A DNA stretch of 4,548 nucleotides from IMG/VR virus record IMGVR_UViG_2671180296_000009, one strand, 5' to 3'. Source of the DNA: a virus (taxonomy: Duplodnaviria; Heunggongvirae; Uroviricota; Caudoviricetes). Below the pieces are notes generated by a model. It did not search any database. It was not told the origin of the DNA and saw only the letters and a program-made list of their open reading frames with translations. The position numbers and the translations under genes were made by a program. Shown in pieces: positions 1 to 656 of the stretch; position 1 is the first letter of the stretch; each line of letters begins with the position of its first letter.

Positions 1-546
1 ATGTTTGTTGGTCAGGGTGATCAGATATTCATGAATGAAGTGTTCCTGAAATATCTGACGGCTCCCACCATTACCAGCGGCGGTAATCCTCCTGCATTTT
101 CCCTGACACCGGACGGAAAGCTGACCGCTAAAAATGCCGATATCAGCGGTAACGTGAATGCGAACTCCGGGACGCTCAACAACGTCACGATAAATGAGAA
201 CTGTCAGATTAAGGGGAAACTGTCAGCCAATCAGATTGAAGGCGATATTGTCAAAACGGTGGGAAAATCCTTTCCGAGAAATGGCAGTTATGCCAGCGGT
301 ACAATAACGGTCACTGTGTACGATGACCAGGCTTTTGACCGTCAGATAGTAATCCCACCCGTTCTGTTTCGCGGTGGTAAGCATGAAAACTTTAACAGCA
401 ACAACCAACAGTCATACTGGTACTCAACCTGTAAGCTGCAGGTGCTGAAGAACGGACAGGAAATCTTTCAGCAACCCGCGACGGATGTCAGCAGGGTATT
501 TTCATCTGTCATCGATATGCCTGCCGGACACGGCATGTCACCCTGA
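1..546 (+). CDS. J: Host-specificity / central tail fibre protein J, C-terminal part (5'-partial; gene continues upstream of window); reading frame ends prematurely at TGA 544-546
   Basis: Frame-1 translation (…[20 protein letters not shown]…DRQIVIPP…[16 protein letters not shown]) is collinear with the C-terminal region of phage lambda gpJ as I recall it (…[20 protein letters not shown]…DRQIVVLP…VQVFSRIVDMPAGRG…). The ATG at position 1 is an internal Met, not the real start. Gene order J-lom-stf-tfa matches lambda. Confidence 0.85.
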
Positions 547-656
547 CTTTCAATGTTTCTTCATATGGTGCTAATAACTGGACGCCAACGACCAGTATCA
601 GCGACCTTCTTGTTGTCGTGATGAAGAAATCAACAGCCGGTATCAGTATCAGCTGA
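540..656 (+). pseudogene. J: Out-of-frame continuation of J: the last ~38 codons of the J homolog lie in frame 3 with no start codon, ending at TGA 654-656
   Basis: Frame-3 translation of 540-653 is [38 protein letters not shown], which aligns with the remembered lambda gpJ C-terminus (…ILTFTLTSTRHSADIPPYTFASDVQVMVIKKQALGISVV). Frame 3 is open from 435 to 656 but has no ATG before 621. Confidence 0.55.

What the first reader, a model, noticed from the sequence alone, without database searches (positions are those of the whole stretch)
529..656. Apparent single-base deletion truncates the J tail-tip protein and orphans its last ~38 codons
Frame 1 of J stops at 544-546 after …[10 protein letters not shown], while the sequence homologous to the gpJ C-terminus continues in frame 3 to 656 ([38 protein letters not shown]). 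Restoring one A in ggcatgtc (about 535-536) to give ggcaatgtc would read …[14 protein letters not shown]…, collinear with lambda …AGRGNVILTFTLTS…. The C-terminal domain of gpJ is the receptor-binding part, so either this is a defective prophage whose central fibre is disabled, or a sequencing/assembly indel. In a cryptic prophage, side-fibre and lom functions could persist while J decays.
Basis: partly seen in the sequence, partly recalled or inferred. Interest (0 to 1): 0.55.

Follow-up and report, generated by a model that had tools for sequence, protein, structure and literature searches.

The report
Probable assembly-error frameshift in prophage J
The one-base gap that cuts short the phage tail-tip gene J is really in this sequence record, but it is one of three such gaps crowded into the ragged first 720 bases of an unpolished PacBio contig, so it is most likely a sequencing/assembly error rather than a disabled prophage.

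Summary
J frame 1 stops at 544-546 (…GHGMSP*), and the homologous C-terminus continues in frame 3 to the stop at 654-656. Every intact relative has one more base here, reading CAC GGN CAT GTC (…GHGHVTLTF…).

The window comes from E. coli FE95160, contig LFZI01000008.1, a PacBio RS-only Celera draft of 43 contigs. That contig starts inside J, 188 nt before the window. Against the nearest intact relative (AP025747.1), contig bases 1-910 differ by 3 substitutions and 3 one-base deletions in short runs, at contig positions 35, 177 and about 720. The next 3.3 kb has 83 substitutions and no indels. The chromosomal flank out to 13.6 kb shows no net length difference from strain N96.

Restoring the three bases gives an uninterrupted J C-terminus one residue different from the relative. 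The deletion allele was found in no other collection.

Best explanation: consensus errors at a poorly supported contig end that lies in a multi-copy prophage gene (about 0.8). Rival: a genuine triple-frameshift J pseudogene (about 0.15). Either way the finding is ordinary and of low interest.

The parts
1..546 (+). 3' part of the lambdoid tail-tip gene J (phage-21-like receptor-binding type), read in window frame 1 and ending at a premature TGA at 544-546. The ATG at position 1 is internal (…[10 protein letters not shown]…), not a start codon.
   Evidence: Pfam PF09327 Phage_Tail_Tip plus PF12421 Ig_GpJ_C, profile positions 17-95 only. 93-95% nt identity to J of phage 21 and E. coli prophages.
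532..536 (+). Site of the missing base: GG^CAT, where relatives read GGN CAT (Gly-His). In the nearest relative this is a G3-to-G2 change in CACGGGCAT.
   Evidence: Alignments. 58 of 58 viral contigs carry the intact allele and none the deletion allele.
534..656 (+). Orphaned last 40 codons of J ([10 protein letters not shown]…STAGISIS) plus the natural stop at 654-656, in frame 3. There is no start codon of its own that would give a product of 30 aa or more.
   Evidence: These codons match Ig_GpJ_C profile positions 96-135 once repaired. They are identical to the C-terminus of the intact J in L015.
675..700 (+). Intrinsic terminator of J (GGGCGCC-AGAAAT-GGCGC, then a T run). It is one C shorter than in phage 21, and this variant is shared with the nearest relative, so it is a real polymorphism.
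   Evidence: terminator scan. (gap against L001-L003 and L005 but none against L015).
723..1322 (+). lom (Ail/Lom outer-membrane beta-barrel), intact at 199 aa. The identical protein occurs in many E. coli prophages.
1387..3477 (+). Side tail fibre gene stf, intact at 696 aa.
   Evidence: PF08400, PF03406. Same length as in N96 and L015.
3492..4070 (+). DUF4376 protein in the tail-fibre-assembly position, intact at 192 aa.

Best explanation
The frameshift is most likely a base-calling/consensus error in the deposited assembly, not a mutation in the bacterium. The window comes from a 17.4-kb contig of E. coli FE95160. That draft was built only from early PacBio RS continuous long reads with Celera Assembler. 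The contig breaks inside J, a gene present in several diverged copies in this multi-prophage genome. At such a contig end few corrected reads support the consensus, and reads from paralogous J copies may be mixed in. Noisy long-read consensus then tends to drop single bases in short runs. In the cell, J is most likely an intact gene of about 1233 codons. Its C-terminal receptor-binding domain would end …[14 protein letters not shown]…GISIS.

Shown: the three deletions, their clustering at the contig start, their absence elsewhere, and the sequencing method. Inferred: that they are errors, since no reads were seen.
For: 1. Source and method. The contig is GCA_001264195.1 LFZI01000008.1 and the window is contig 189-4736. 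LFZI00000000 is strain FE95160: PacBio RS P4/C2, HGAP pre-assembly, PacBioToCA, Celera 7.0, 43 contigs. No Quiver or short-read polishing is described. The authors Sanger-checked a gene only where they suspected an error (PMC4551483).
2. Clustering. Against the nearest relative L015 (intact J, 1233 aa), contig 1-910 has 3 substitutions and 3 one-base deletions, at positions 35, 177 and 719-721. Contig 911-4233 has 83 substitutions and 0 indels. Contig 782-10736 against syntenic strain N96 has no true indel except the shared terminator variant. Contig 4700-13665 aligns to exactly 8966 nt of N96. All other called genes on the contig have normal lengths.
3. Error signature. All three are single-base deletions in short runs: GGG to GG, AA to A, GGG to GG. 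PacBio-only assemblies are reported to retain mainly homopolymer indels, including single G/C deletions in E. coli-like GC content, and these truncate predicted proteins (PMC8574707).
4. No decay otherwise. Restoring the three bases gives an open 281-aa reading frame with 1 amino-acid difference from the intact relative.
5. The allele is unique. There are 0 exact matches to the deletion allele in viral, metagenome and species-representative genome collections, against 58 viral contigs with the intact allele. The top 30 listed of about 1080 E. coli complete genomes carrying this J tail all align with the extra base (97 nt against the 96-nt query), and the best whole-query identity was 96.9%.
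Against: - No reads were available, so the error is inferred and not observed.
- Runs of 2-3 bases are not the classic long-homopolymer error sites.
- The same paper confirmed by Sanger sequencing that one single-base deletion in a sister assembly (estIa of IH53473) was real. Not every frameshift in these drafts is therefore an artefact.
- Defective prophage tail genes are common in STEC genomes (own knowledge).
- Selection would purge indels from lom, stf and the bio genes in any case, so the clustering in J is also what a real pseudogene would show.
Confidence: 0.8

Rival explanations
1. Genuine pseudogene. The prophage next to ybhB in FE95160 has really acquired three independent -1 frameshifts in the last 900 nt of J. 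No functional tip attachment protein is made, while lom, stf and the DUF4376 gene remain intact.
For: - The deletions are in the record.
- The prophage right arm carries other signs of rearrangement: 3' remnants of a GDSL hydrolase gene and of a lambda-type tfa at 4211-4548.
- A Sanger-verified single-base deletion exists in a sister strain's estIa.
- Cryptic prophages with broken tail genes are common in STEC (own knowledge).
Against: - Three indels against three substitutions over 910 nt, relative to an intact near-identical J, is far from the roughly 1:10 indel-to-substitution ratio of spontaneous E. coli mutation (own knowledge). With 0.3 indels expected, the Poisson probability of 3 or more is about 0.004 (my arithmetic).
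- There is no nonsense substitution and no excess of amino-acid change: 1 in 281.
- All three changes are deletions, and they become denser towards the contig end (35, 177, 720).
- The allele was seen nowhere else.
- The assembly is unpolished PacBio RS CLR.
Confidence: 0.15
2. Artefact of paralog mixing rather than low coverage alone. Reads from other J copies in the genome were piled onto this contig end. The consensus dropped a base where the copies disagree.
For: - The deleted base at the reported site is exactly the polymorphic third position of the Gly codon (G, C or T among J alleles).
- The other two deletions lie within 1-3 nt of C/T polymorphisms between J alleles.
- The paper reports 10 prophage regions in this strain.
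- The contig breaks inside J.
Against: It cannot be separated from simple low-coverage error without the reads. Outside the three gaps the fragment is a clean 99.7% match to a single allele (L015), with no mosaic pattern. This is a sub-variant of the best explanation and gives the same biological conclusion; its confidence is counted within the 0.8.
Confidence: 0.3
3. Programmed or tolerated translational recoding: a -1 ribosomal frameshift that joins frame 1 to frame 3 and yields full-length J.
For: None beyond the existence of an open frame-3 continuation. Lambda does use a programmed -1 frameshift elsewhere in its tail genes, at G/GT (own knowledge).
Against: - There is no X XXY YYZ slippery heptamer between the last frame-3 stop and 544 (read directly: …TTT TCA TCT GTC ATC GAT ATG CCT GCC GGA CAC GGC ATG TCA CCC TGA).
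- No relative conserves the frameshift: 58 of 58 viral contigs are in a single frame, as are the examined E. coli homologs (top 30 rows; L001 and L015).
- Two further frameshifts upstream would each need their own recoding event.
Confidence: 0.01

Closest known systems
Lambda gpJ (tip attachment protein / central tail fibre) with a phage-21-like C-terminal receptor-binding domain
   Same: Once repaired, the fragment carries Phage_Tail_Tip plus Ig_GpJ_C over the full profile. It aligns end to end with solved gpJ structures: 9wca 'A8 gpJ 713' at E=5e-147 and lambda gpJ 8iyk/8xcj at about 1e-95. It lies in the lambda gene order J-lom-stf-tfa. The prophage sits at the lambda attachment region next to ybhB-bioA.
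   Different: The RBD sequence class is that of phage 21, mEp460 and many E. coli prophages (93-95% nt identity), not lambda's own. As deposited, it is interrupted by three 1-nt deletions.
Gene-fragmenting indel errors in long-read-only bacterial assemblies
   Same: Single-base deletions in short runs split an otherwise conserved gene in a PacBio-only, unpolished draft. The Kastor paper (PMC12007338), listed, addresses the same class of error.
   Different: Here the errors are confined to one contig end, not scattered through the contig. Read-level confirmation is lacking.
Defective lambdoid prophages of STEC with inactivated tail genes
   Same: A lambdoid prophage in a Shiga-toxin strain shows an interrupted tail gene and rearranged remnants downstream of the tail-fibre genes.
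   Different: Real decayed prophages normally also show substitutions, insertions, IS elements or larger deletions. Here J is otherwise 99.7% identical to an intact copy.

Membership tests
Lambda gpJ tip attachment protein | C-terminal Phage_Tail_Tip and Ig_GpJ_C (receptor-binding) domains | tested here: met
The truncated frame-1 product covers PF12421 positions 17-95 only.
Lambda gpJ tip attachment protein | Sequence homology to structurally solved gpJ through to the last residue | tested here: met
   9wca_J at E=5e-147, aligned over query 3-281 and chain 150-428. Lambda gpJ 8iyk_J at E=1.5e-94.
Lambda gpJ tip attachment protein | Synteny: J followed by lom, stf and a tail fibre assembly gene | tested here: met
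Long-read consensus (assembly) error | The record derives from noisy long reads without accurate-read polishing | tested here: met
   PMC4551483: PacBio RS P4/C2 CLR, PacBioToCA plus Celera 7.0. No Quiver or Illumina step is described.
Long-read consensus (assembly) error | Single-base indels in short runs, clustered where support is weakest (contig end or repeat) | tested here: met
   deletions at contig 35 (G3 to G2), 177 (A2 to A1) and 719-721 (G3 to G2), then none in the next 3.3 kb; none in the flank to 13.6 kb. The contig starts inside multi-copy J.
Long-read consensus (assembly) error | The variant is absent from independent sequences of the same allele | tested here: met
   Searches found 0 matches to the deletion allele. 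One search found 58 matches to the intact allele. In one search the listed E. coli hits all carry the extra base.
Long-read consensus (assembly) error | Reads or independent re-sequencing of the same strain show the base present | not testable with these tools
Genuine prophage pseudogene | Signs of relaxed selection besides the frameshift (excess non-synonymous changes, nonsense codons, other lesions) | tested here: not met
   the repaired 281-aa frame is open and 1 residue different from intact L015 J; only 3 substitutions in 910 nt.
Genuine prophage pseudogene | The lesion is reproducible in an independent sequence of the strain or lineage | not testable with these tools
   No second assembly of FE95160 was found. 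The best E. coli complete-genome match to the whole window is 96.9%. Syntenic N96 and L008 have intact J.
Programmed -1 ribosomal frameshift | A slippery heptamer, and conservation of the two-frame arrangement among homologs | tested here: not met
   No heptamer is present in 480-546. All homologs examined are in a single frame.

The most novel reading that the evidence does not exclude
The three -1 frameshifts are real. FE95160's prophage at the lambda attachment site is probably the stx1a phage that the source paper places between ybhC and ybhB. It would then have lost its tail-tip receptor-binding protein very recently while keeping lom, stf and the fibre-assembly gene intact. That would be a freshly immobilised toxin prophage caught before any other decay.
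Probability: 0.12. Interest if true: 0.2.

Novelty: not a real feature. Interest (0 to 1): 0.07.

Why it matters
The main value is as a caution. A frameshift that looks like prophage decay can simply be the ragged end of an unpolished long-read contig. The window boundary (an internal ATG taken as a start) is itself a product of a second such gap.

If the lesions were real, the finding would still be an ordinary case of prophage tail-gene inactivation. It would matter only locally, for whether this strain's prophage, probably its stx1a phage, can form infectious particles.

Tried and rejected
- **Exact look-up of the truncated 181-aa product.** It is not on record, so there is no independent occurrence.
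- **Exact-pattern scans for the deletion allele.** Genome contigs, viral contigs and metagenome contigs all returned 0. The genome contigs null is uninformative, because the intact allele is also absent from the species representatives. The viral scan has a positive control of 58 hits.
- **Fetching the other end of the source contig** to see whether deletions also cluster there. The contig's last 3.7 kb was therefore not examined.
- **The fourth 1-nt gap, at window 691 in the J terminator.** It first looked like another error when compared with phage 21, K56-43 and N96. It is shared with the nearest relative L015, so it is a real polymorphism and was dropped from the error count.
Rejected, because no relative has AAT there.
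- **Programmed frameshifting.** Rejected: there is no slippery site, no conservation, and two more shifts lie upstream.
- **The large protein-database searches, structure prediction and RNA tools.** Not used. The question was settled at the DNA level and those tools could not distinguish an error from a mutation.

Full report
**What is in the window.** The 4548-nt window carries the right arm of a lambdoid prophage, with these features:
- the 3' end of J (1-656)
- an intrinsic terminator (675-700)
- lom (723-1322)
- a 696-aa side tail fibre gene (1387-3477)
- a DUF4376 gene in the tfa position (3492-4070)
- two gene remnants (4211-4548)

**The observation.** Frame 1 reads …[14 protein letters not shown] and stops at TGA 544-546. 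Frame 3 reads [39 protein letters not shown] and stops at 654-656. I aligned 400-720 with the intact J genes of phage 21, Lambda_4C10 and E. coli K56-43. The window lacks exactly one base, in an otherwise almost invariant stretch.

The intact reading is CAC GGN CAT GTC ACC CTG, which translates as H-G-H-V-T-L. The lost base is therefore the third position of the Gly codon, between window 533 and 534. The repaired protein is …[14 protein letters not shown]…. Among 58 viral contigs with the intact allele, the base is C in 35, T in 19 and G in 4.

**Where the window comes from.** An exact look-up of the Stf protein found a single contig: NCBI GCA_001264195.1, LFZI01000008.1, 17,406 nt. The window is bases 189-4736 of it. 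The contig therefore begins inside J, only 188 nt before the window. Downstream lie a Mn-catalase/DUF892/KGG cluster, ybhB and bioABFCD. This is the lambda attachment region of E. coli, and the flank is 98.4% identical to strain N96.

LFZI00000000 is E. coli FE95160, a bovine STEC/ETEC hybrid. It was sequenced only on a PacBio RS (P4/C2 chemistry, continuous long reads). It was assembled with HGAP pre-assembly, PacBioToCA correction and Celera Assembler 7.0 into 43 contigs, the most fragmented of the paper's three genomes. No consensus polishing is described, and the authors Sanger-checked genes only when they suspected an error (PMC4551483). The paper places the strain's stx1a prophage between ybhC and ybhB. 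It also says non-contiguous phages were joined using an optical map. Both statements fit this contig being the broken-off right arm of that phage; that identification is my inference.

**The lesion is not alone.** The 188 nt upstream of the window contain two more single-base deletions relative to every J homolog compared:
- GTGGGCC to GTGGCC at contig 35
- GGCAACAC to GGCACAC at contig 177, which is window -11

As deposited, J is in four frame pieces. The incoming frame stops almost immediately (…NSMWP*). The next piece ends …[16 protein letters not shown]. The window's frame 1 is only the third piece. So the window's initial ATG is an internal Met codon (…[12 protein letters not shown]…) exposed by the second deletion. 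If the record were taken literally, J would lose about 270 residues, not 38.

**The key comparison.** Looking up the exact Lom protein retrieved ten E. coli loci. One of them, L015 (AP025747.1), has an intact 1233-aa J and is nearly identical to the contig's J end:

| Contig region | Substitutions | Indels |
|---|---|---|
| 1-910 | 3 | 3 one-base deletions, at 35, 177 and 719-721 |
| 911-4233 | 83 | 0 |

At the reported site L015 reads CACGGGCAT, so the change there is G3 to G2.

Against the syntenic strain N96, contig 782-10736 shows no genuine indel apart from a terminator variant. Contig 4700-13665 aligns to exactly the same length of N96 DNA. That terminator variant (GCGCC to GCGC, window 691) is shared with L015 and is therefore a real polymorphism, not a fourth error.

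Re-inserting the three bases gives an uninterrupted 281-aa frame that differs from L015 J at one residue. It covers the whole Ig_GpJ_C receptor-binding domain (Pfam profile 17-135, against 17-95 for the truncated product). It also aligns to the last residue of solved gpJ structures (9wca at E=5e-147, lambda 8iyk at about 1e-94).

**Is the allele seen anywhere else?** No.
- The 37-nt sequence spanning the deletion has no exact match in the viral, metagenome or species-representative genome collections.
- The same pattern with one extra base matches 58 viral contigs. It matches none of the species representatives, so that null carries no weight.
- About 1080 complete E. coli genomes carry this J tail. 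The top 30 listed rows all align with the extra base (97 nt against the 96-nt query), and the best whole-query identity was 96.9%.
- The truncated product is not on record as a called protein.

**Interpretation.** Three single-base deletions, all in short runs, become denser towards the start of the contig (35, 177, 720). They sit in DNA that otherwise differs by three substitutions from an intact gene, and more than 12 kb without indels follows. All of this is in an unpolished first-generation PacBio assembly whose contig breaks in a multi-copy prophage gene. This is the expected signature of consensus error at a weakly supported contig end.

Published work on PacBio-only assemblies reports residual errors of this kind. 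More than 70% of them fall in homopolymer runs (86% in E. coli), they include single G/C deletions, and they truncate predicted proteins (PMC8574707). A contribution from mixed paralogous reads is plausible. The base lost at the reported site is exactly the position that varies (G, C or T) among J alleles, and the other two deletions lie next to allele differences.

For a real mutational history I would expect roughly one indel per ten substitutions (own knowledge of E. coli mutation spectra). With 0.3 indels expected, three or more has a Poisson probability of about 0.004 (my arithmetic).

**What keeps the rival alive.**
- I could not see the reads.
- Runs of 2-3 bases are not extreme error sites.
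- Selection would remove indels from the neighbouring intact genes anyway.
- The same paper verified by Sanger sequencing that a single-base deletion in a sister strain's estIa was genuine.
- The prophage's right arm shows old rearrangements.

I put the artefact at about 0.8, a real triple-frameshift pseudogene at about 0.15, and anything else, including recoding, at a few percent. Programmed frameshifting is rejected for three reasons: there is no slippery heptamer before 544, no homolog conserves the arrangement, and two further shifts lie upstream.

**Comparison with what is known, and novelty.** The gene is a clear member of the lambda gpJ family, with a phage-21-like receptor-binding domain. 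The domains, the structural homologs and the synteny were all tested and met. The frameshift belongs to the well-known class of gene-fragmenting indels in long-read-only assemblies. If it were real, it would be an ordinary defective-prophage lesion. Neither reading is novel, so I classify it as not a real biological feature and score interest low.

**Decisive test.** Map the PRJNA269579 reads to the first kilobase of the contig, or PCR and Sanger-sequence the J-lom junction of FE95160.

Noticed in passing
L004 1-188 (source contig upstream of the window; window -187 to 0): Two more 1-nt deletions in J (contig 35, GGG to GG; contig 177, AA to A) split the gene into four frame pieces. The window's first codon (ATG) is an internal Met exposed by the second deletion, so the window boundary itself follows an artefactual ORF call.
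   Followed up: yes
window 675-700: The 3' arm of the J terminator stem is one C shorter (GGCGC against GGCGCC) than in phage 21, K56-43 and N96. The same variant is in the nearest relative L015, so it is a genuine polymorphism. The scan still predicts a hairpin followed by a T run.
   Followed up: yes
window 4211-4372 (+): A 54-codon ORF matches only the C-terminal end of the GDSL/SGNH lipase family (Pfam PF13472, profile 138-176 of 178, E=1.7e-4, below the curated cut-off; it contains …[10 protein letters not shown]…). It looks like a 3' remnant of an esterase gene downstream of the tail-fibre genes.
   Followed up: partly
window 4339-4548 (+): A 3' remnant of a lambda-type tail fibre assembly gene (Caudo_TAP, profile 76-131 of 131). 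Window 4373-4531 is about 98% identical to the end of lambda tfa (orf-194). It lies downstream of an intact DUF4376 gene that occupies the tfa position, and RefSeq annotates it as a partial pseudogene in N96 and 08-00022. This is evidence of past replacement of the fibre module.
   Followed up: partly
L004 4856-7642: Between the prophage end and ybhB lies a Mn-catalase / two DUF892 (YciE/YciF-like) / KGG (YciG-like) stress-gene cluster plus a 37-aa 'capsid protein' remnant. Only 14 of 5426 complete E. coli genomes align over at least 80% of this flank, which includes the cluster. It may be cargo of an older prophage at the lambda attachment site.
   Followed up: no
window 2028-2888 (-): A 286-aa antisense ORF lies inside the Ala-rich part of stf. 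Lambda's record annotates a comparable antisense ORF (orf206b) inside its stf (orf-401). It is probably a compositional by-product.
   Followed up: no
L011, L012, L013 (GCA_047262165.1, GCA_047262225.1): Other assemblies carrying the identical lom show split J, tail protein L, prfC and peptidase genes. Gene-fragmenting indels in prophage tail genes may therefore be a recurrent assembly-quality problem, not a peculiarity of this record.
   Followed up: no
repaired J C-terminus (L004 2-847): The best solved-structure match is not lambda gpJ but the entry named 'A8 gpJ 713' (9wca/9wcb, E=5e-147), with a near-identical last 75 residues. A structure of this receptor-binding-domain class therefore exists. 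The receptor was not looked up.
   Followed up: no
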